DNA of 64,000 nt from a phage: the sequence record PZ386965.1; one strand, given 5' to 3'. How positions within the stretch are numbered: the first letter of the stretch is position 1; each line of letters opens with the position of its first letter. The notes beneath the pieces were generated by a model. That model saw only the letters and a list, made by a program, of their open reading frames with translations, was not told the DNA's origin and did no database searches. The translations under genes and the position numbers were made by a program. Below, one piece after another: positions 9,566 to 60,336 of this stretch.

Positions 9566-11381
9566 AGGACATCCATTCTTTACGAAGTTCTGAATCATCA
9601 CCCATCAACATTTCAAAGAGTTCTTTCCAATTTTCAGGAAGTTTAACTACGTCGTACACAGGGTTCTGAATCATTTCACGATATTCTGACTTTTCAAGGG
9701 AGCCTAATCCCTTGATGTATCGAATACTATGCTTAGGCAGTGTATCTTTAACTTCTTCATACTCAGCTACAGTATAAAACCATTTTTGAGTTTTGCCAAT
9801 TTGTGCAATAATTACAGGTGTTTTAACAAAGCGAATACGTCCTTGTTCAAACAATTCAGGCCAATTACTAAAGAAAGCAAGCAAAGCCGGATAGATACTT
9901 CCAAGACCGTCATGATCTGCATCAGTCATAATTGCAATATTACGATAGTTCGTATTCTCTGCCTTTTCACCAAGAATAAGACCTGTGATAGCACAGATAT
10001 CAAAGAGCTCTTTGTTCTTCATCATATCAGCATATGACATACCCCAGCTATTCATCACCTTACCACGTAACGGGAATCCGCCGTGTAGTTCACGGTCACG
10101 AACATCAATGAGATAACCAATTGCAGAATCACCTTCTGTTAAGAACAATGTCGTATCTGCATCTTTACCACATTGGTTAGCTTTAATATGCTTATGAACC
10201 TTAGCTTTAGTTGCCTTTTTAGCTGCTTTAGTTTCTGCAGCCTTTTCTGCCGCCAATTTACGAGCTAATGCTGCTTCAACAATAGGCATAATCAAGGCTT
10301 CGTTTTTAAGAAGTGCCTGAGCAATTTTCTTAGCATCTAATTGGATATGATTACGAATATCGCCATACGTTGACGTTAAACGTTCTTTAGTCTGAGAATC
10401 AAAACGCATGTTGCTCATGTCTCTAATAAACATCAACATTGTGAGGCATTCTTTAACACGAGCTTTAGTGACTTCAATACCCTTATATTTCTTTTTAATA
10501 CCCGGCAAAAGATGTTCGCAGATATCGTCCATTACACATTCAACATGATGTCCACCATTTTTAGTATGGATGTTATTCACATAAGTTAAATGACGGAAGC
10601 CATCTGGTGATGTTGTGAATGCTATAGAGACTTTATCATTTTCTTGAATGATGTTATCTTCACCAAATTGTTTAGCAAATCGTTTAAAATTACCATCAAC
10701 CTTTTTACCGTTAAATGTGAACTTGATATCAGGATAAACGACTGCCAATGTTTGAAGTCGGTCTAAAGTAATATCTAAATAAATTTGAGATAAATTATGC
10801 TCTTCAAATGAAGTGAAATCAGGAGTGAAGATTACTTTAGTGCCTTTACCTTTAGATTTCTTAGAAGACCATGATTTGTTTTCCATTCCGTTTGAACAGT
10901 TAACAGTGATTTCATTTTCGCCATCTGACGTAATGCCTGTAAACAACGTAGAGAAGATATTAGTTAAACTACTCCCTACACCGTTCATACCACCGGTCTT
11001 GCGTTCAGAGTCATCACCAAAGTTACCACCAGCCTTTGGAATAGTCCAGGCTGCTACAGGCCCAGGAATTTGTTCACCTGTTTGGTCGGTAACTAAACCT
11101 TGAGGAATACCACGTCCGTTATCTTCTACAGAAACTTGATTATTTTTAATTTGCACATCAATTTTATTTGCAAACTTAAATGATGTACGAATAGCTTCAT
11201 CAACCGAGTTGTCAATAATCTCATCGATTAATTTAACCAGGCCAGGAACATATTCAACTTGTTGATATTTACCAAACAAAAAACGCTCATGTGCTTCTTT
11301 GGCCGAAGAACCAATATACATACCACTACGTTTCTTAATATGTTCTACATCTGACAATACCTTAATTTCATTTTTAATCAT
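9564..11381 (-). CDS. 39: DNA topoisomerase II large subunit (GyrB-like), continuous 39+60-type
   Basis: 605 aa single ORF; GHKL ATPase and TOPRIM motifs. Confidence 0.9.
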   Translation of the reverse strand: MIKNEIKVLSDVEHIKKRSGMYIGSSAKEAHERFLFGKYQQVEYVPGLVKLIDEIIDNSVDEAIRTSFKFANKIDVQIKNNQVSVEDNGRGIPQGLVTDQTGEQIPGPVAAWTIPKAGGNFGDDSERKTGGMNGVGSSLTNIFSTLFTGITSDGENEITVNCSNGMENKSWSSKKSKGKGTKVIFTPDFTSFEEHNLSQIYLDITLDRLQTLAVVYPDIKFTFNGKKVDGNFKRFAKQFGEDNIIQENDKVSIAFTTSPDGFRHLTYVNNIHTKNGGHHVECVMDDICEHLLPGIKKKYKGIEVTKARVKECLTMLMFIRDMSNMRFDSQTKERLTSTYGDIRNHIQLDAKKIAQALLKNEALIMPIVEAALARKLAAEKAAETKAAKKATKAKVHKHIKANQCGKDADTTLFLTEGDSAIGYLIDVRDRELHGGFPLRGKVMNSWGMSYADMMKNKELFDICAITGLILGEKAENTNYRNIAIMTDADHDGLGSIYPALLAFFSNWPELFEQGRIRFVKTPVIIAQIGKTQKWFYTVAEYEEVKDTLPKHSIRYIKGLGSLEKSEYREMIQNPVYDVVKLPENWKELFEMLMGDDSELRKEWMS

Positions 11382-13348: not shown

Positions 13349-13768
13349 TTATGCGAAAGCAGCTGGGCTATATTTTTTAATTTGGAATTCAGGAACTACC
13401 ATGAACTGCCCGGCAAAAACAATGTTATAAAGCTTGACACCATCTTCTACCCAACGGTCGCTAATAAATCCAGCGATTTGCTTAGTTTTCCATGGTGTTC
13501 CATCAGTTGCCGCAGCAATAGTGAATTCATGGTCTTTTTCAACAGAAACTGATCTGCATAGTCCCCATTTGAACGCTTTTTCTTCTGGCTCAATGAACTG
13601 GCTTTTAACGTAACCAATGTTGCCATCAGCATCACGAACTTTAACTTCATTGCGACCAAAAACAGGATCACTTACATAAAGAACTTCAACCAACTTACCA
13701 GCAACTTTAGAGCGAGAAGCATCCGATACGTGTACGTAATCACCAATAGAGAGATTTGCAATATTCAT
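13349..13768 (-). CDS. paralog family member 1 (C-terminal GFISDRWVEDG..LYNIVF motif)
   Basis: 139 aa; shares N- and C-terminal motifs with next two genes. Confidence 0.6.
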   Translation of the reverse strand: MNIANLSIGDYVHVSDASRSKVAGKLVEVLYVSDPVFGRNEVKVRDADGNIGYVKSQFIEPEEKAFKWGLCRSVSVEKDHEFTIAAATDGTPWKTKQIAGFISDRWVEDGVKLYNIVFAGQFMVVPEFQIKKYSPAAFA

Positions 13769-13777
13769 AATAATTCC

Positions 13778-14233
13778 TTAAGCTTTACGAGGAGATACAT
13801 AGCGAGTGATTTCAGATTCTTTAACAACTCTGAAGTCACCTAAGAATACGATATTGTATAACTTTTCACCATCTTCTACCCATTGGTCACTAATGAAGCC
13901 ACACATGATATCAGTTTTGTTTGGATAACCATATTCGTCGATGAAATCAAATTCTTTATCAGTCCGGAATTCAACGCCTTTGCAAAGGGCCCATTTGAAC
14001 TGTACATTAGGTTCAGTAGAAGCAAAATGAGCGCTCACATGAGTTTCCAAGAATTTAGGACTTACGTAAGCGTACTGAGTTTCAGTTTTTCCAGAACTAG
14101 GAATGATTCGAACTTTAACTTCTTTAACACGACCAGTACCATTAGTACGAAGTCCTACCACTTCAACTAGACGACCTGCAGCTTTAGAACGAGATGCAGA
14201 CGATACACGCTTAATTTCACCAATAGTAATCAT
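13778..14233 (-). CDS. paralog family member 2
   Basis: start moved to internal Met (MITIGEIK) because a promoter lies inside the ORF-track N-terminal extension. Confidence 0.6.
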   Translation of the reverse strand: MITIGEIKRVSSASRSKAAGRLVEVVGLRTNGTGRVKEVKVRIIPSSGKTETQYAYVSPKFLETHVSAHFASTEPNVQFKWALCKGVEFRTDKEFDFIDEYGYPNKTDIMCGFISDQWVEDGEKLYNIVFLGDFRVVKESEITRYVSPRKA

Positions 14234-14263
14234 AATTTCTCTCTCTTTGTTTAAGTTGAATTC

Positions 14264-14293
14264 ATTATACTCCATCCATCCTTGGATGTACAA
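14264..14293 (-). promoter_or_regulatory. promoter for paralog member 2
   Basis: TTGTAC - 18 nt - TATAAT with CCAAGGATGG spacer. Confidence 0.5.
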
Positions 14294-14295
14294 CA

Positions 14296-14790
14296 TTAAT
14301 TTAGAATATTAACTACTGCACTACGTGGAACCACACTAAAATCACCAGCATGAACAACGTTCAGAAGTTCAACACCGTCTTCAATCCACTGATCAGTTAC
14401 CCATCCATTTACTGGACCAGCGAATGGGCGTCGAATTGAAACATATTTACACAACAAATCAGTAGGCTCAATAGGCTTAATCAGAGTACCGTACATACAA
14501 GCGATATCCATATCAATACAGATGTCTTTAACGGGTTCTACTTCTTCAATCAACAGTTCAAAGTCGGTGCTTGGAAGGGCGGTGGTAGAAATTGTACCGT
14601 ATGAATTTTTAATTTCTAAGAATAACCAAGGGCCTTCAGCTTGTTTGATGAAGTTAACAATAGTGAAACTATTACCTTGAGTGGCACCTAAAATTTCACA
14701 AAACTTTTCATAAGCTCGCATTGAAGCACCGTACCAGTTAATTTGTTTTTCGTCTTTCAGGATGTAAGTAGCCGTGGTATTGATATTCAT
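14296..14790 (-). CDS. paralog family member 3
   Basis: 164 aa; C-terminal GWVTDQWIEDG..LLNVVH motif; own promoter. Confidence 0.6.
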   Translation of the reverse strand: MNINTTATYILKDEKQINWYGASMRAYEKFCEILGATQGNSFTIVNFIKQAEGPWLFLEIKNSYGTISTTALPSTDFELLIEEVEPVKDICIDMDIACMYGTLIKPIEPTDLLCKYVSIRRPFAGPVNGWVTDQWIEDGVELLNVVHAGDFSVVPRSAVVNILN

Positions 14791-14822: not shown

Positions 14823-14852
14823 ATTATACTCCAACCATCCTTGGTTGTAAAC
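14823..14852 (-). promoter_or_regulatory. promoter for paralog member 3
   Basis: GTTTAC - 18 nt (CAACCA..TGGTTG inverted repeat) - TATAAT. Confidence 0.55.
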
Positions 14853-25420: not shown

Positions 25421-25490
25421 TTCAATTTCCTCTATAGTTGATAGGTCTATAGTATCACTACCATAGACCCCTGTAAACAATTATTTTATT

Positions 25491-56427: not shown

Positions 56428-56732
56428 TATAATGTTCTCTCAAATTTGTGGAAGCATTTACGGCATTTCAATTTCAAGTTATCAGTGGTCCAGTTAACCA
56501 GTTGGACTTGGATAGTTCCACATTCCGGGCATGGATGTTTTGCTGCCGATTTGGCAGCATTTTCACGTCGTTCAACCATTTTCATTATTTCGTTCCATGC
56601 TGGAGGAACGAACTCTTCTTCACCGTGGATTTTATCTCGCTGAACAAATTCAATCTTTGAACTATCGTCAATAAACTTAACCAAGCCATGATTAGTGCTC
56701 ATATCAATATCCTCTAAAAGACGTAGGTTCAT
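56427..56732 (-). CDS. zinc-ribbon protein, 101 aa
   Basis: C-terminal CPEC...CRKC. Confidence 0.5.
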   Translation of the reverse strand: MNLRLLEDIDMSTNHGLVKFIDDSSKIEFVQRDKIHGEEEFVPPAWNEIMKMVERRENAAKSAAKHPCPECGTIQVQLVNWTTDNLKLKCRKCFHKFERTL

Positions 56733-57673
56733 TATAACACCTCAATGGCATTTCGTAAACCGTCCGCTTTCGCATTCAGAGCTTTTAACGATTTAGTCTG
56801 TTCTTTAATCTGAGCTTCGACTTCTTTCAGACGAGATTTGAGATATTCACGTTCTTCGCTCAGGTTATCAACCTTTTCAACTTTAGGTTCTTTAGGCTTA
56901 TACTCGTTAGGATTCTTCAGTTTAATTCGAATTCGAGAACTGAATAACATTGAACCGTTATCTTCGGTTTCGTCGAACATTTCAACAACATCCATAGTCT
57001 GTAACATCACGCAGAGTTTATAAGACAACGAACGAATAGTTTTGTTGTGCTTATTAATTTCTTCGGCTTTCATGGCACCGAGATTACGTGAGTAGTAATA
57101 AGGAACCTGGATATCAATTGATAATGATGCGTTACCATTACCTGTTGGTTTGAATACTGCAGTAACCCAATCTTTAACATGAACTTTATTTGTACGATCA
57201 TCGCCGCCTGTGAATAATTTACGAGAATGTTTAAAAAGCATATTCACTTGGTTATTGAATTCACAAGCAAATTTATCAGCAAATTTAGTTTCAGGAATGG
57301 TAGATAACCAATCAGCCAAATGAGTCTTTTTAACATCATTAACAATAGTGAATTCAACCAAATCGGTTTTAGATGTCACAGATTTAATAAAGCTCGGTTT
57401 CATAAAGTTTTTAATGTTATCGCGAGCTACAGTAGAAGATAATAAACGAGAACGTTTGAACCATTGAAGCAGCGTCCCTAATGAATGAGAATATGCATTT
57501 TGAGTATCTTTACAGATATGATTTTCTTGGTCCGTGTATGTACCAAAATCTCGAAGAATACCACTTACTACATCTCGGTGTGGAATATCAAATCCTAGTG
57601 CACCAGAAGCGCGCTGAGCATGAACGTTAGCGATAAGACCGGCAAAGTATTCAATGTAATGTGAACGTGTCAT
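56732..57673 (-). CDS. hypothetical protein with C-terminal coiled coil, 313 aa
   Basis: ORF behind CCAAGGATGG-type promoter. Confidence 0.55.
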   Translation of the reverse strand: MTRSHYIEYFAGLIANVHAQRASGALGFDIPHRDVVSGILRDFGTYTDQENHICKDTQNAYSHSLGTLLQWFKRSRLLSSTVARDNIKNFMKPSFIKSVTSKTDLVEFTIVNDVKKTHLADWLSTIPETKFADKFACEFNNQVNMLFKHSRKLFTGGDDRTNKVHVKDWVTAVFKPTGNGNASLSIDIQVPYYYSRNLGAMKAEEINKHNKTIRSLSYKLCVMLQTMDVVEMFDETEDNGSMLFSSRIRIKLKNPNEYKPKEPKVEKVDNLSEEREYLKSRLKEVEAQIKEQTKSLKALNAKADGLRNAIEVL

Positions 57674-57735
57674 AATATTTTCCTCTCGTTAAGATAGAAA
57701 GATTATACTCTAACCATCCTTGGTTGTAAACTGAT

Positions 57736-58695
57736 TTATGATTTTAATGCATTCATTGCGTTAAAAAGTTTAGAGTATTGCAACTGGAGATTGGTCACCA
57801 CCTGTTGAGCATCACGAAGCTTAGCTTGTGCCTTATCAAGTTCAGCAGACAGTTGGTCTACAGTAGCCTTGATTTGATTGTAATAATAATCTTCAGCCGG
57901 AAGAAGGTCATTAGAAACATTTAGTTTTACTGCCGACAGTTTGCACACATTTGGCAAACCTTTAAACATACCAGATTGTGCTGGAGAATATGCACCTAGA
58001 ACCTCTGCATTACCGACTGGTGTTGCTGTAATATTGCCTTCAAACAATGCATTTTCCTTTTTAAGATTTTGATAGTATTCAGAGTCTTTGTGCCACCATG
58101 GTGCAGGAACCTTTTTACCAATAGATACACGAGCTTGGATAGCGATATGGCCCTTATTCTTGATAAGGTCGACAATATTAAGCTCACGAGAATAAATTGC
58201 TTTAATCTGGTGGATATTATCACCTAAAACTTCCAACGCTTGGTGGAATACACGAGCAACGTTATCATTCTTAGGTTTATACGTAAGAGTGAACTCATTC
58301 TCACTGATAACCATGATTTCCAACTTATCGTAAGTATATTTCAAATGTTTCATGTTAATTGCTTGAGGACGAATACGAGAAGCAATGGCCATCAGATTGT
58401 TAAGGTTATTCCGGAACTGCTTAGCGAAATATTGTCCTTCACCGCCAATACAAAAATTACGAAGTTTCTGTTTGGCCAGTAAACGACTGAACTCGCCATT
58501 TTTAATGAACTCTTTAACGGGTGTGTTAGTAACGCATTCAAATTGAGTAAACTTACGAGAATTAATCCCATAATACGAACAGATTTCTTCAATCTCTTCA
58601 GGAGTCTTTACAGGCATACGGATAGGATTAGGTCCTGGGGTATATGCGTTCGAGGTAAATTCTTTGATAAGTTCTCTACGTGTAATAAAAGCCAT
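57736..58695 (-). CDS. hypothetical protein with C-terminal coiled coil, 319 aa
   Basis: ORF behind CCAAGGATGG-type promoter. Confidence 0.55.
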   Translation of the reverse strand: MAFITRRELIKEFTSNAYTPGPNPIRMPVKTPEEIEEICSYYGINSRKFTQFECVTNTPVKEFIKNGEFSRLLAKQKLRNFCIGGEGQYFAKQFRNNLNNLMAIASRIRPQAINMKHLKYTYDKLEIMVISENEFTLTYKPKNDNVARVFHQALEVLGDNIHQIKAIYSRELNIVDLIKNKGHIAIQARVSIGKKVPAPWWHKDSEYYQNLKKENALFEGNITATPVGNAEVLGAYSPAQSGMFKGLPNVCKLSAVKLNVSNDLLPAEDYYYNQIKATVDQLSAELDKAQAKLRDAQQVVTNLQLQYSKLFNAMNALKS

Positions 58696-58750
58696 TTTAT
58701 ATTCCTCATGTTGAAAAATTTATTATACTCCAACCATCCTTGGTTGTACA

Positions 58751-59746
58751 TCATTCCTTAAGAAGTTTTACTACTTGAATAAGATTAGCTCGTTCTGTTT
58801 TATTTTTACCATTTAAGCCTGCTAATCGTGAGATTTCATCGTCAGTCTGTTGAATAGTTACATTAAGTTCGTTAATCAAAGCTTCAAAGTATTTGATTTG
58901 CTCAGCATGTTTTGATTCAAATTTCTGAACCGGAATAACGTCTTGGTTTAGTTCGTCAATAAGGTCTTTAAGAGCATCTTCTTGGTTGATATCGTATTCA
59001 ACTTCTTTTATTTCTTCAACTAGCTCGTCTTTATATCTAACGTCTTTTAGTCCTGGTGCTGGTCCTGAAATCTCTTCTTTAAGAGTACAAACATACCCAA
59101 TACGGTATCCAGTGCCGTCTCGCTTGATATCAACTTCGTCGATAAATCCACAATGTTTGAGACCAGAGCCGATTAGGTCAAAATATCCTTGACGACGTCC
59201 TTCAAACGTTACACGAACTACTAAGACAGTTTTGCCTGCAATCTTTTGAAGCTCACATTTATAAAAGTCAGTTGAACCTGAATAACGTGGATGAGTTTTA
59301 AAGTTCATCTGACGATCTAGGCCCATTTGTAAACGTGCTGTTACGGCCATAAAACGTGTTTGGTTCTCGTTAAGATGAGCAACAATCCATTTCAAAGGCA
59401 TTTTACACTGTTCACGACCGAACAAATCAGTACGTCCTAGATTACGCAGGATGTTGTTAGAGTTAATCATCGACAGAACGTTAAGTTTATTCAGCGCGCT
59501 GAAGATTCCATCAGCCATTGATTTTCCGTAGCCTTTACACGCTTTAATAAGCGCTCGCGGTAGATTAGTATAGATTTCAGACGGCATATGAAAATCAAAT
59601 TTACTAACCAGTAATTGATGAACTTGGATAGCAATTCGTTCATAATTAAGCGCTCTGCGATCATTATGGTCTTTAAACCACACTTTAATCTGTGAAGCAC
59701 ATAAACCGTTAATTTCATGTTTTATCGCATCAGATGTAATGCTCAT
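58751..59746 (-). CDS. hypothetical protein with C-terminal coiled coil, 331 aa
   Basis: ORF behind related promoter. Confidence 0.55.
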   Translation of the reverse strand: MSITSDAIKHEINGLCASQIKVWFKDHNDRRALNYERIAIQVHQLLVSKFDFHMPSEIYTNLPRALIKACKGYGKSMADGIFSALNKLNVLSMINSNNILRNLGRTDLFGREQCKMPLKWIVAHLNENQTRFMAVTARLQMGLDRQMNFKTHPRYSGSTDFYKCELQKIAGKTVLVVRVTFEGRRQGYFDLIGSGLKHCGFIDEVDIKRDGTGYRIGYVCTLKEEISGPAPGLKDVRYKDELVEEIKEVEYDINQEDALKDLIDELNQDVIPVQKFESKHAEQIKYFEALINELNVTIQQTDDEISRLAGLNGKNKTERANLIQVVKLLKE

Positions 59747-59808
59747 AACTATTTCCTCAGATTGAATTGGAACTCAAAACCATTATAACCCGTCCTTGGG
59801 TAAAGCGT

Positions 59809-60336
59809 TTATGCGTGAACCGTCTTTAAACGTTCTTCAAATTTCCGAAGAGTACTAATACGTTCTGCTTTCTGTTTTGTATAGTTTGCAATACGTTCTG
59901 AAGTGAGAGCGTATCGTTCGTTTACTGTTTCTTTCATGAAGTCAGGGATTTCACGAGAAGCTTTAATTTCATCAAACTTGTCGAGTACTGCCTGGTCTTC
60001 AGCGATTAAATTTTCATACATCTCGATATCTTTCTTGATAAACTCGATATCTTCCTGAGTTACTTTGGATAAACGAGATGCTTTATCCTTTTTGTACTGC
60101 TCGTTAGTTTCACGAGACCAGAATAATGTACGTTTTTTGTTAGTGTTTTTGTAGACTTCCACAATTCCAACTGAATCGATGATAACAATCCAATTCCAGC
60201 GAGATTTGAAAATCTGACCTCCATCCACAGTAATCTCGTTACCATAAGCAACGTCATTAAAGAACTTGCTCTGTGCTTCAGATTTAAATTTACCGTCGTT
60301 ATAATTTACCAGGTTGAAAATATCTTTAGCGTTCAT
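59809..60336 (-). CDS. hypothetical protein, 175 aa
   Basis: ORF with promoter upstream. Confidence 0.5.
   Translation of the reverse strand: MNAKDIFNLVNYNDGKFKSEAQSKFFNDVAYGNEITVDGGQIFKSRWNWIVIIDSVGIVEVYKNTNKKRTLFWSRETNEQYKKDKASRLSKVTQEDIEFIKKDIEMYENLIAEDQAVLDKFDEIKASREIPDFMKETVNERYALTSERIANYTKQKAERISTLRKFEERLKTVHA

What the first reader, a model, noticed from the sequence alone, without database searches (positions are those of the whole stretch)
56732..59746. Three consecutive ~320-aa genes with C-terminal coiled coils, each behind a CCAAGGATGG-type promoter
ORFs of 313, 319 and 331 aa each end in a long heptad-rich helix. Each is preceded by a promoter of the same sub-class as the triplicated family at 13349..14790. 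Sequence similarity among them is weak, but the shared architecture and promoter class suggest a diverged paralog array expressed together. Function is unknown.
Basis: partly seen in the sequence, partly recalled or inferred. Interest (0 to 1): 0.4.

Follow-up and report, generated by a model that had tools for sequence, protein, structure and literature searches.

The report
Phage paralog array, probable immunity blockers
Three neighbouring early genes of an RB69-like T-even phage match T4 nrdC.3, nrdC.5 and nrdC.6 and are very diverged copies of one another on small promoter-hairpin cassettes; because T4 nrdC.5 is known to switch off the bacterial Dsr1 defence, they are probably a small anti-immunity arsenal, a known kind of thing.

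Summary
The window is a Mosigvirus (RB69-like) T-even phage. The three minus-strand ORFs are real.

**Identity**
- A (313 aa) is the ortholog of T4 NrdC.3.
- B (319 aa) is a DUF7235/NrdC.5 family member.
- C (331 aa) is an NrdC.6 homolog.
- In T4 all four array genes (nrdC.3 to nrdC.6) give early RNA and detected protein.

**C-terminal helices.** The three have the three highest C-terminal heptad scores of 58 ORFs in the window.

**Promoters.** 'CCAAGGATGG' is a hairpin (stem, AGGA loop, stem) that keeps pairing through compensatory changes. For A and B it sits inside a T4-type early promoter, which makes it a known PeSL cassette. C has a one-mismatch hairpin behind a MotA-box middle-type promoter.

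**Paralogy.** BLASTP finds nothing between the three. Profile-profile comparison supports homology:
- NrdC.3 with NrdC.4: 97.7%.
- That pair with NrdC.5: 88%, coiled coil removed.
- All three with NrdC.6: 72 to 92%, but only after each profile was enriched with one outgroup sequence.
- Controls reached at most 3%.

AlphaFold models were poor (pLDDT 47 to 51), but their secondary-structure order is the same.

**Function.** Inferred, not shown. T4 nrdC.5 neutralises Dsr1, and neighbouring genes block OLD and Septu. The genes are therefore probably fast-evolving anti-defence proteins. This is a new member of a known kind, of moderate interest.

The parts
58751..59746 (-). Gene C, 331 aa: homolog of T4 NrdC.6 (phrog_2257; Pfam PF26899 on its close relatives)
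   Evidence: ORF. It is 29.7% identical to T4 NrdC.6 over 276 aa, E 3.7e-18. The gene order NrdC.8, C, B, A, NrdC.2 is conserved across loci.
57736..58695 (-). Gene B, 319 aa: member of DUF7235 (PF23882), the family of T4 NrdC.5 and RB69 NrdC.5
   Evidence: Pfam DUF7235 scores 393.8 bits over the full length against a cutoff of 30. T4 NrdC.5 scores 420.6 bits in the same family. B is 24.5% identical to T4 NrdC.5 over 302 aa, E 4e-9, and 95% identical to RB69 NrdC.5.
56732..57673 (-). Gene A, 313 aa: ortholog of T4 NrdC.3 (phrog_1435; PF26897 on its relatives). Its stop overlaps the ATG of the NrdC.2-like gene (ATAATG)
   Evidence: 56.6% identical to T4 NrdC.3 over the full length, E 3e-120.
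59782..59806 (-). Middle-type promoter cassette upstream of C. It consists of a MotA-box-like GCTTTA (59806-59801), the hairpin ACCC-aaggac-GGGT (59801-59788) and TATAAT (59787-59782)
   Evidence: Sequence. Hairpin scan. Folding gives -5.9 kcal/mol. The homologous site in phage SA79RD is annotated as a T4 middle promoter, GCTT(N13-15)TATAAT. The same arrangement lies upstream of T4 nrdC.7 and of nrdC.6 in L010 and L017.
58722..58750 (-). Early promoter plus stem-loop (PeSL-type) upstream of B. It consists of TGTACA (58750-58745), the hairpin CAACCA-agga-TGGTTG (58746-58731) and TATAAT (58727-58722)
   Evidence: The promoter scan gives 10 of 12 matches with a 17-nt spacer. The hairpin is (-6.9 kcal/mol).
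57702..57730 (-). Early promoter plus stem-loop (PeSL-type) upstream of A. It consists of TTTACA (57730-57725), the hairpin AACCA-agga-TGGTT (57725-57712) and TATAAT (57707-57702)
   Evidence: The promoter scan gives 11 of 12 matches with a 17-nt spacer. About 50 nt are nearly identical to the cassette at 14851.
58754..58930 (-). C-terminal heptad-rich helical tail of C (residues about 273-331, with a break at 295-301)
   Evidence: Heptad score 6.5, p = 0.005. Helices 273-294, 302-312 and 316-330 in the model.
57739..57897 (-). C-terminal heptad-rich helical tail of B (residues about 267-319)
   Evidence: Heptad score 8.1, p = 0 of 200 shuffles. The stretch above the 95% null level covers 267-319.
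56735..56860 (-). C-terminal heptad-rich helical tail of A (residues about 272-313)
   Evidence: Heptad score 7.6, p = 0 of 200 shuffles. Helix 272-312 in the model.
56731..56759 (-). Promoter-like site inside the 3' end of A (TTTACG-N17-TATAAT with an upstream TG), pointing at the NrdC.2-like gene. Candidate only
   Evidence: The promoter scan gives 10 of 12 matches. SA79RD annotates an early-promoter-like site at the same place.

Best explanation
These are the nrdC.3-like (A), nrdC.5-like (B) and nrdC.6-like (C) genes of an RB69-type T-even phage.

**Origin.** They are very diverged paralogs of one ancestral gene. T4 keeps a fourth copy, nrdC.4.

**Architecture.** Each protein has the same build:
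- an N-terminal helical region with two shared motifs, roughly [FL]xKxGxLSxxxAxxxLxNF and FxxN(x)4L(x)3AxRL;
- a small beta-hairpin / helix / beta-hairpin unit;
- a linker;
- a C-terminal coiled-coil helix of 35 to 55 residues that most likely makes the protein oligomeric.

**Expression.** Each gene is its own small expression cassette.
- A and B have a sigma-70 T4-type early promoter with a stem-loop in the spacer (a PeSL).
- C has the same kind of hairpin in a MotA-type middle promoter.
- Transcription therefore occurs in the first minutes of infection.
- The repeated cassettes also provide recombination points at which copies are gained, lost or swapped between phages.

**Function.** This is inferred. 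The proteins are accessory anti-defence factors that bind and neutralise host immune proteins. B's family includes the T4 inhibitor of the SIR2-type NADase Dsr1. The paralogs have most likely diverged to cover different targets or target variants.

**What is shown and what is inferred.**
- Shown: gene identity, synteny, the heptad tails, the promoter and hairpin anatomy, and statistical support for homology.
- Taken from the literature on T4: early expression, dispensability, and nrdC.5 against Dsr1.
- Inferred: that B acts on Dsr1-like proteins, that A and C are anti-defence at all, direct binding, and oligomerisation.
For: **Identity and synteny**
- 96% DNA identity to Mosigvirus phages.
- Homology of A, B and C to T4 NrdC.3.5 and .6 (A is an ortholog at 56.6% identity, B and C are distant homologs at 24.5% and 29.7%).
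- DUF7235 membership of B and of T4 NrdC.5.
- Conserved gene order NrdC.8.6.5, (.4).3.2 in 10 or more loci.

**Paralogy**
- hhalign gives 97.7% for NrdC.3 with NrdC.4.
- It gives 88.3% for NrdC.3+4 with NrdC.5, core only.
- It gives 71.9 to 92.5% for NrdC.3+4+5 with NrdC.6 after enrichment.
- Bridging single sequences: LilPanda gp192 scores 94.8% and 33.4% against the two sides, and EnA02 scores 65.8% and 11.5%.
- Controls reach at most 3.1%.
- The two motifs are placed in register in every alignment.
- Independent AlphaFold runs give a co-linear order of secondary-structure elements.

**Coiled coil:**

**Promoters and hairpins**
- Anatomy.
- The stem is kept by compensatory changes. Position 4 carries AT, CG, TA and GC pairs and is paired in 9 of 9 sequences.
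- This matches the published PeSL/PmSL definition, TTTACW-N17-TAYWAT with the stem-loop between the -35 and -10 boxes (PMC4122927, PMC2839356).

**Expression in T4:** nrdC.3.4 and .6 give early RNA and early protein. nrdC.5 gives early RNA and middle protein (PMC9697503 supplement).

**Function**
- Expressing T4 nrdC.5 restores infection of dsr1-carrying cells, and the gene is dispensable on laboratory hosts (PMC9391042).
- Neighbouring genes Gp49.2 and NrdC.1 inhibit OLD and Septu.
- The families are confined to T-even phages and diverge fast: only 6 representatives among 1.84 billion proteins, and 22 to 24% identity within DUF7235.
- Copies are often broken or deleted.
Against: - No confident structure could be obtained (pLDDT 50.9 and 47.3), so a common fold is not demonstrated.
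- The link of C to A and B is weak with plain family profiles (0.3 to 9.8%). It reaches 72 to 92% only after one outgroup sequence is added to each side.
- B is only about 24% identical to the T4 protein that was tested on Dsr1, so its target may differ.
- Nothing is known experimentally about NrdC.3 or NrdC.6. The four-term search for nrdC.3.4.5 and .6 found four papers; none of the three listed reports a function for NrdC.3 or NrdC.6.
- The mechanism of NrdC.5 itself (binding or otherwise) is unpublished in the library searched.
- The promoters are consensus matches plus analogy. No transcript ends were mapped for this phage.
Confidence: 0.55

Rival explanations
1. The genes are paralogs, but not immune antagonists. 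On this reading they are early host-takeover or housekeeping accessories, for example proteins that bind host nucleoid, membrane or replication/transcription components. The Dsr1 effect of T4 NrdC.5 would then be an indirect or lineage-specific side effect.
For: - The function of NrdC.3.4 and .6 is untested.
- B is only 24% identical to T4 NrdC.5.
- There is no match to any defence or anti-defence-related model, Pfam domain of known function or PDB chain.
- Many T4 early genes act on host physiology (established knowledge).
Against: - The only experimental datum for the superfamily is anti-defence.
- The locus is flanked by other proven inhibitors.
- The genes are dispensable, often broken, copy-number variable and confined to a narrow phage group. 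This pattern is typical of arms-race genes rather than of conserved takeover functions.
Confidence: 0.25
2. The three genes are unrelated accessory ORFs that only look alike. On this reading, similar length and a C-terminal coiled coil arose independently, and the promoter cassettes merely shuffle unrelated ORFans side by side, as PeSLs are proposed to do.
For: - BLASTP finds no similarity.
- Pfam and PHROGs keep the three in separate families.
- Plain profiles of C's family against the others score within or near the noise (0.3 to 1.6%).
- PeSL cassettes are described as flanking unrelated ORFans.
- The structure models are too poor to show a common fold.
Against: - NrdC.3+4 with NrdC.5 gives 88.3% over 206 core columns without the coiled coil.
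- Enriched profiles link C's family at E 3.4e-5 to 4.9e-7, while 28+3 controls stay at E 0.014 or worse.
- The same two motifs align in register in all pairs.
- After its own family, the NrdC.5 HMM ranks NrdC.3, NrdC.4 and NrdC.6 members plus syntenic outgroup candidates in 22 of its first 22 places out of 619 ORFs. With the coiled coil trimmed, the ranking is similar but includes a few unrelated ORFs.
- The order of secondary-structure elements is the same in the independent models of A and C.
Confidence: 0.12
3. The proteins are phage-versus-phage or superinfection-control factors, that is, defence rather than counter-defence. They would be expressed early to exclude competitors.
For: Early expression and accessory status fit. 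T-even early regions do carry exclusion genes (established knowledge).
Against: There is no match to PADLOC defence models. The tested family member acts against a host defence.
Confidence: 0.05

Closest known systems
T4 NrdC.5 (DUF7235, PF23882), the T4 early protein that counteracts the E. coli ECOR17 Dsr1 defence (Srikant, Guegler and Laub 2022, PMC9391042)
   Same: B is a full-length DUF7235 member (393.8 bits). It occupies the same position in the array, has the same length class and the same C-terminal heptad tail. Its T4 counterpart gives early RNA.
   Different: B is only about 24% identical to the T4 protein. RB69-type, T4-type and Dhakavirus-type members are three deeply split subtypes. 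Activity of B on Dsr1 or anything else is untested, and the mechanism of T4 NrdC.5 is not known either.
T4 NrdC.3, NrdC.4 and NrdC.6 (uncharacterised early proteins; PF26897 and PF26899 families)
   Same: A is the NrdC.3 ortholog (56.6% identity) and C is an NrdC.6 homolog (29.7%). Synteny is conserved, and the T4 counterparts give early RNA and early protein.
   Different: This phage has three copies, not four: nrdC.4 is absent. In the T4 reference, NrdC.6 lacks the coiled-coil tail because of a frame change. Databases do not record that these families are related to one another or to DUF7235.
PeSL / PmSL cassettes (promoter-early or promoter-middle stem-loops) of T4-like phages (Arbiol et al. 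2010, PMC2839356; Comeau et al. 2014, PMC4122927)
   Same: The elements here are intergenic and have a TTTACW-N17-TAYWAT promoter with a stem-loop between the -35 and -10 boxes, followed by a Shine-Dalgarno sequence and ATG. They are repeated nearly identically at distant sites (57730 and 14851) and flank variable accessory genes. A MotA-box version exists upstream of C.
   Different: This sub-class has a short stem of 4 to 8 bp with a conserved AGGA loop and CCA/TGG inner pairs, unlike the G-run/C-run or AGNA/TCNT stems described. In the loci held here it marks mostly this paralog array plus two genes of the 13349-14790 family. Terminator or recombination activity is not tested.
DSAD1 of SPbeta-like phages (inhibitor of DSR2)
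   Same: It is a functional analogy only: a phage protein that neutralises a defence-associated sirtuin, in that case by binding the sensor region.
   Different: No sequence relationship was seen or expected, the host group differs, and the target is DSR2 rather than DSR1. Direct binding by NrdC.5-type proteins is an assumption.

Membership tests
DUF7235 / NrdC.5 family (gene B) | Significant full-length match to Pfam PF23882 | tested here: met
   393.8 bits, E 7.8e-118, residues 15-318 on profile positions 1-307, cutoff 30. T4 NrdC.5 scores 420.6 bits.
DUF7235 / NrdC.5 family (gene B) | Same genomic position as T4 and RB69 nrdC.5 (between the nrdC.6-type and nrdC.4/.3-type genes) | tested here: met
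   Gene order in the window, T4 and 10 or more loci.
DUF7235 / NrdC.5 family (gene B) | Neutralises Dsr1 (the functional property shown for the T4 member) | not testable with these tools
   Only literature on T4 is available (PMC9391042). B shares 24% identity with that protein.
NrdC.3 family (gene A) | Full-length homology to T4 NrdC.3 | tested here: met
   56.6% identity over 313 aa, E 3e-120. phrog_1435 full length. Relatives carry PF26897.
NrdC.6 family (gene C) | Homology to T4 NrdC.6 | tested here: met
   29.7% identity over 276 aa, E 3.7e-18. phrog_2257. Relatives carry PF26899. The family profile finds the T4-type and Dhakavirus-type members at 76 to 104 bits.
One superfamily NrdC.3/.4/.5/.6 (paralog array) | Statistically supported homology between the families outside the coiled coil | tested here: met
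   NrdC.3 with NrdC.4: 97.7%. NrdC.3+4 with NrdC.5: 88.3%, E 2.9e-6, 206 columns, tails trimmed. NrdC.3+4+5 (trimmed) with NrdC.6 plus EnA02: 71.9%, E 3.4e-5. Controls at most 3.1%. The C link depends on enrichment; plain profiles give 9.8%.
One superfamily NrdC.3/.4/.5/.6 (paralog array) | Common three-dimensional fold | tested here: inconclusive
   AlphaFold models of A and C have pLDDT 50.9 and 47.3. The order of helices and strands is the same. Foldseek against BFVD gives TM of about 0.3 and is uninformative.
PeSL (promoter-early stem-loop) cassette | Sigma-70-type early promoter TTTACW-N17-TAYWAT in an intergenic spacer, followed by a Shine-Dalgarno sequence and ATG | tested here: met
   A: TTTACA-17-TATAAT. 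B: TGTACA-17-TATAAT. Not met for C, where the spacer from TTTACC is 11 nt. C fits the middle-promoter (PmSL) form GCTT-N15-TATAAT.
PeSL (promoter-early stem-loop) cassette | [quoted passage not shown] | tested here: met
   Hairpins at 57725-57712, 58746-58731 and 59801-59788. Pairing is kept by compensatory changes across 9 cassettes.
PeSL (promoter-early stem-loop) cassette | Promoter activity, terminator/attenuator activity, and recombination between cassettes | not testable with these tools
   These were shown for RB49/phi1 PeSLs only (PMC2839356). Copy-number differences between phage lineages are compatible with cassette exchange.
Coiled-coil protein | Heptad periodicity of hydrophobic residues over at least 4 heptads in a helix | tested here: met
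   Home-made a/d score against shuffles: p 0.005 or lower for all three. They are the top three of 58 ORFs. Only coiled-coil noise hits appear in Pfam and PDB. No standard predictor (COILS, MARCOIL) was available, and the oligomer state is unknown.
Phage anti-defence protein (functional class) | Early expression, dispensability on permissive hosts, and rescue of infection on a host carrying a defined defence | not testable with these tools
   Early RNA and detected protein for all four T4 homologs. Dispensability and rescue on Dsr1 are shown for T4 nrdC.5 only. There is nothing for A or C.

The most novel reading that the evidence does not exclude
NrdC.3, .4, .5 and .6 form one fast-evolving superfamily of coiled-coil-tailed immune antagonists, apparently restricted to T4-like phages. 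T-even phages keep them as an array of self-contained promoter-hairpin cassettes, so copies can be swapped, duplicated or dropped. Each paralog neutralises a different host defence, or a different Dsr1/SIR2-type variant. Other T4-like genera carry a single copy next to nrdC. The covarying AGGA hairpin would then be the shared linker of this cassette system, and possibly also an RNA-level signal.
Probability: 0.3. Interest if true: 0.6.

Novelty: new member of a known kind. Interest (0 to 1): 0.38.

Why it matters
- **Dsr1.** It is still a poorly understood defence, and the way T4 NrdC.5 disarms it is unknown. If NrdC.5 is one of four related proteins with a common core and an oligomerising tail, there are natural variants to compare. 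A, C and NrdC.4 also become immediate candidates for inhibitors of other defences.
- **Annotation.** Hundreds of GenBank records label these proteins 'thioredoxin' only because of the gene name. Nothing here supports that label.
- **Cassettes.** The hairpin-promoter cassettes add a concrete, sequence-defined example of how T-even phages may reshuffle accessory genes.
- **Scope.** None of this is new in kind. Its value is in linking known pieces and making predictions that can be tested.

Tried and rejected
1. **Pairwise BLASTP** among A, B and C found nothing.
2. **Contaminated first profiles.** The first family profiles gave a spurious strong link between NrdC.3 and NrdC.5. I traced it to P0033, a natural nrdC.5::nrdC.3 deletion chimera in the alignment. 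Those numbers are discarded and all profiles were rebuilt. The same chimera was in the alignment used for the AlphaFold run of A.
3. **AlphaFold2** of A (30 sequences) and C (5 sequences) gave pLDDT 50.9 and 47.3. Only the secondary structure is usable.
4. **Foldseek against BFVD.**
   - With the A model only its own family appeared.
   - With the C model the hits were its own family, then roughly 300-aa proteins of other T4-like phages at E 4e-4 to 2e-2 but TM of about 0.3. This is suggestive and not used as proof.
5. **A merged MAFFT alignment** of the three families misplaced motif 1 of A. It was not used for searches or folding.
6. **The whole-library HMM search** with the C family returned only 6 representatives, so it added no diversity.
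7. **IMG/VR and metagenome scans** with NrdC.8 as an anchor gave only 8 and 6 loci, mostly close relatives.
8. **Aeromonas and Cronobacter T4-like loci** lack the synteny.
9. **No informative match** in PDB by sequence or profile, PADLOC, NCBIfam or Rfam.
10. **Intrinsic terminators.** None lies on the coding strand between the genes; the only coding-strand match lies inside gene A.
11. **The KM16 354-aa protein** beside the NrdC.2-like gene could not be placed in any family (at most 5%).
12. **Miller et al. 2003** (PMC150520), the T4 promoter catalogue, is not held.

Full report
**What the window is.** The 3-kb region is 96% identical to Mosigvirus (RB69-like) T-even phages such as Shigella phage ESh15 and Escherichia phage SA79RD. 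Five hundred and twelve phage records match it. The annotated relative shows the familiar T4 neighbourhood: endonuclease VII, pin, nrdC, then the nrdC.x genes, all on one strand. GC content is flat at about 37%. In this window everything relevant is on the minus strand.

**The observation.** The three ORFs are exactly as reported: A is 56732..57673 (313 aa), B is 57736..58695 (319 aa) and C is 58751..59746 (331 aa). Each has a GAGG ribosome-binding site. Plus-strand ORFs over the region are short (61 to 80 aa) and have no support. Rfam finds nothing on either strand.

The C-terminal heptad-rich helices are real. A simple a/d-position score peaks in the last 40 to 55 residues of each protein and beats 200 shuffles, with p = 0, 0 and 0.005. 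Among 58 minus-strand ORFs of at least 120 aa in the window, these three have the three highest C-terminal scores. The only weak database hits for these tails are coiled-coil proteins such as prefoldin, troponin T and laminin.

**The 'CCAAGGATGG promoter'.**
- The decamer occurs exactly four times in 64 kb, always on the coding strand. Two sites are upstream of A and B and two are in the 13349-14790 gene family. With one mismatch allowed there are six sites against 1.7 expected.
- It is a hairpin: a 4 to 8 bp stem, an AGGA loop (AAGGAC in the C-upstream and L010 cassettes), then the complementary stem.
- For A and B it lies in the 17-nt spacer of a T4-type early promoter, TTTACA or TGTACA followed by N17 and TATAAT.
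- Comparing nine such cassettes from this window, T4 and a Dhakavirus-type contig, the outer stem positions change but stay paired. Position 4 carries AT, CG, TA and GC, and positions 3 and 5 also show compensatory changes. The hairpin is therefore under selection.
- This is what Krisch and co-workers named PeSLs (promoter-early stem-loops): TTTACW-N17-TAYWAT with a stem-loop between the -35 and -10 boxes, placed before accessory genes in the plastic regions of T4-like genomes. PeSLs were shown in RB49/phi1 to act as promoter plus attenuator and to recombine with one another (PMC2839356, PMC4122927).
- Upstream of C the hairpin has one mismatch (ACCC-aaggac-GGGT) and the promoter type differs. 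TTTAC is too close to the -10 box (11 nt), but GCTT-N15-TATAAT fits the MotA-dependent middle promoter. The annotators of SA79RD reached the same reading at the same site.
- The same middle-type hairpin cassette precedes T4 nrdC.7 and the nrdC.6-type gene of L010 and L017.

**What the genes are.**
- A is the ortholog of T4 NrdC.3 (56.6% identity over the full length).
- B is a distant homolog of T4 NrdC.5 (24.5% identity, E 4e-9). Both are full-length members of Pfam DUF7235, at 394 and 421 bits.
- C is a homolog of T4 NrdC.6 (29.7% identity, E 4e-18).
- T4 has four genes of this size in a row, nrdC.3.4.5 and .6. The RB69-type phages lack nrdC.4. Dhakavirus-type genomes lack nrdC.3 but keep nrdC.4.
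- In T4, nrdC.3.4 and .6 are early at both RNA and protein level. nrdC.5 is early in RNA and middle in protein, so all four are made (PMC9697503 supplement).

**Are they paralogs?** BLASTP says no, so I built family profiles from database homologs and from syntenic loci.

A first strong link between NrdC.3 and NrdC.5 turned out to be an artefact. One 'homolog', P0033, is a natural deletion chimera that fuses residues 146-272 of NrdC.5 to residues 141 onward of NrdC.3. After removing it, the results were:
- NrdC.3 with NrdC.4: 97.7%.
- NrdC.3+4 with NrdC.5, coiled-coil tails cut off: 88.3%, E 2.9e-6, 206 aligned columns.
- NrdC.3+4+5 with NrdC.6: 9.8%, E 0.0033 with plain profiles.
- The same trimmed, unenriched NrdC.3+4+5 query against NrdC.6 plus the Enterobacter phage EnA02 358-aa protein: 71.9%, E 3.4e-5, core only.
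- With Klebsiella phage LilPanda gp192 also added to the NrdC.3+4+5 side and full-length profiles: 92.5%, E 4.9e-7.

The two outgroup proteins score against both sides. LilPanda gp192 gives 94.8% and 33.4%. EnA02 gives 65.8% and 11.5%.

Controls are clean. Twenty-eight other window ORFs of at least 200 aa reach at most 1.4% and 1.9%. NrdC.8.10 and .11 reach at most 3.1%.

Every alignment puts the same two motifs in register:
- Motif 1: FKRSRLLSSTVARDNIKNF (A), FIKNGEFSRLLAKQKLRNF (B), LNKLNVLSMINSNNILRNL (C).
- Motif 2: FNNQVNMLFKHSRKL (A), FRNNLNNLMAIASRI (B), LNENQTRFMAVTARL (C).

After its own family, the NrdC.5 HMM ranks NrdC.3, NrdC.4 and NrdC.6 members plus syntenic outgroup candidates in all of its first 22 places among 619 ORFs. 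With the tail trimmed, the ranking is similar but includes a few unrelated ORFs.

**Structure.** These families exist only in T-even phages, so the alignments are shallow. The whole-library search with C's family found six representatives among 1.84 billion proteins. The models have pLDDT 50.9 and 47.3.

Their secondary structure, obtained independently, is co-linear:
- three N-terminal helices;
- a helix-break-helix at motif 1;
- a helix at motif 2;
- strands starting at residue 162 in both proteins (three strands to 188 in A, a two-strand hairpin to 179 in C);
- a helix;
- a second hairpin;
- a linker;
- the terminal helix.

Foldseek with such models is not trustworthy. For the record, C's model hit uncharacterised proteins of about 300 aa in other T4-like phages.

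I put the probability that A and B are homologous at about 0.85, and that C belongs with them at about 0.75.

**Function and mechanism.**
- The only experiment on this superfamily is on T4 nrdC.5. A T4 clone that had deleted the region could not plate on cells carrying the ECOR17 dsr1 gene, which encodes a SIR2-type NADase defence. Expressing nrdC.5 restored plating (PMC9391042).
- The immediate neighbours include other proven inhibitors: Gp49.2 against OLD and NrdC.1 against Septu.
- The genes are dispensable and vary in copy number.
- They are often damaged. RB69 nrdC.5 matches in three pieces, one IMG/VR T4-type phage has a split nrdC.4, T4 nrdC.6 has lost its tail by a frame change, and there is the P0033 deletion.
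- They diverge very fast, with 22 to 24% identity between DUF7235 subtypes.

This is the signature of arms-race genes. My best reading is that A, B and C are early anti-defence proteins. Their core domain would bind a host immune protein and the coiled coil would make them multivalent. B would most likely act on Dsr1-like sirtuins, and A and C on other targets.

Binding, oligomerisation and the targets of A and C are inference. No PDB, PADLOC, NCBIfam or functional Pfam match gives independent support.

**Novelty.** The genes, their Pfam and PHROG families, the PeSL cassettes and the anti-Dsr1 activity are all already described. Two points appear not to be recorded. One is that NrdC.3, .4, .5 and .6 are one diverged family. 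The other is that a specific AGGA-loop hairpin cassette, kept paired by compensatory changes, accompanies them. These are useful and testable but modest. I file the finding as a new member of a known kind.

Noticed in passing
protein P0033; corresponds to window 56732..57250 fused to T4-type nrdC.5: A database 'homolog' of A is a natural deletion chimera. Residues 1-129 are T4 NrdC.5 146-272 (94% identity) and the rest is NrdC.3 from residue 141. The join is at a short shared FN(K/Q)VN stretch, and nrdC.4 is removed. It silently contaminated a family profile and produced a false 55-bit cross-family hit.
   Followed up: yes
window 57712-57725, 58731-58746, 59788-59801, 14267-14290, 14826-14850; L002 7890-7905, 8945-8962, 11330-11350: The promoter hairpins keep an AGGA loop and CCA/TGG inner pairs, while the outer pairs change in a compensatory way. 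In 6 of 9 cassettes a GGAG follows the stem directly. GGAG is the motif cut by the T4 RegB endoribonuclease (from memory), so an RNA-level role in read-through transcripts is conceivable.
   Followed up: partly
window 705, 1026, 13343, 25477, 26209, 60391 (minus strand): There is a second class of early promoters: TTTAC(A/T)-N16/17-TA(T/C)TAT followed by AGACCTATCAA. At 25477 and 60391 an inverted repeat (GGTCTAT / ATAGACC) brackets the -10 box. This is a different PeSL-like sub-class, and the NrdC.8-like gene just upstream of C has one.
   Followed up: partly
window 13349..14790 (minus strand): Three small paralogs (139, 172 and 164 aa) share a C-terminal motif, roughly G(F/W)(I/V)(S/T)D(Q/R)W(V/I)EDG, and lie downstream of a 225-aa ORF that looks like exonuclease DexA (from memory). 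Two of the three carry the same AGGA-hairpin early promoter. The cassette at 14851 is nearly identical over about 50 nt to the one upstream of A.
   Followed up: partly
L002 (T4 AF158101) 10067..10894 and the 90 nt upstream of nrdC.5: T4 NrdC.6 is 275 aa and lacks the coiled-coil tail. The tail (…EIFRLSGLSSKAKSEREKLIKIVDLLKS) is still encoded in another frame just before nrdC.5, whereas relatives have an intact 295-aa protein. This is either a frameshift or a sequence error in the reference.
   Followed up: partly
L018 12329-13129 (Klebsiella phage LilPanda gp192); L019 12471-13547 (Enterobacter phage EnA02); L021 12785-13816 (Acinetobacter phage Konradin gp116): Other T4-like genera carry a single distant member of the superfamily at the same place, just upstream of the nrdC or nrdC.2-like genes. 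The array of three or four copies is therefore an expansion in the T4, RB69 and Dhakavirus lineages.
   Followed up: partly
GenBank records under: Many records name these proteins, and also NrdC.10 and NrdC.11, 'thioredoxin'. The label seems to have been carried over from the gene symbol nrdC.x. No thioredoxin domain is detected in A, B or C.
   Followed up: yes
window 59809..60336 (minus strand): The NrdC.8-like protein (175 aa, 83% identical to T4) also ends in a heptad-rich stretch (score 5.7, p = 0.03). It shows no profile similarity to the array proteins (at most 0.8%).
   Followed up: partly
window 56732..56736 (minus strand): The stop codon of A overlaps the start codon of the NrdC.2-like zinc-ribbon gene (ATAATG), which suggests translational coupling. 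A promoter-like site also lies within the last 30 nt of A.
   Followed up: no
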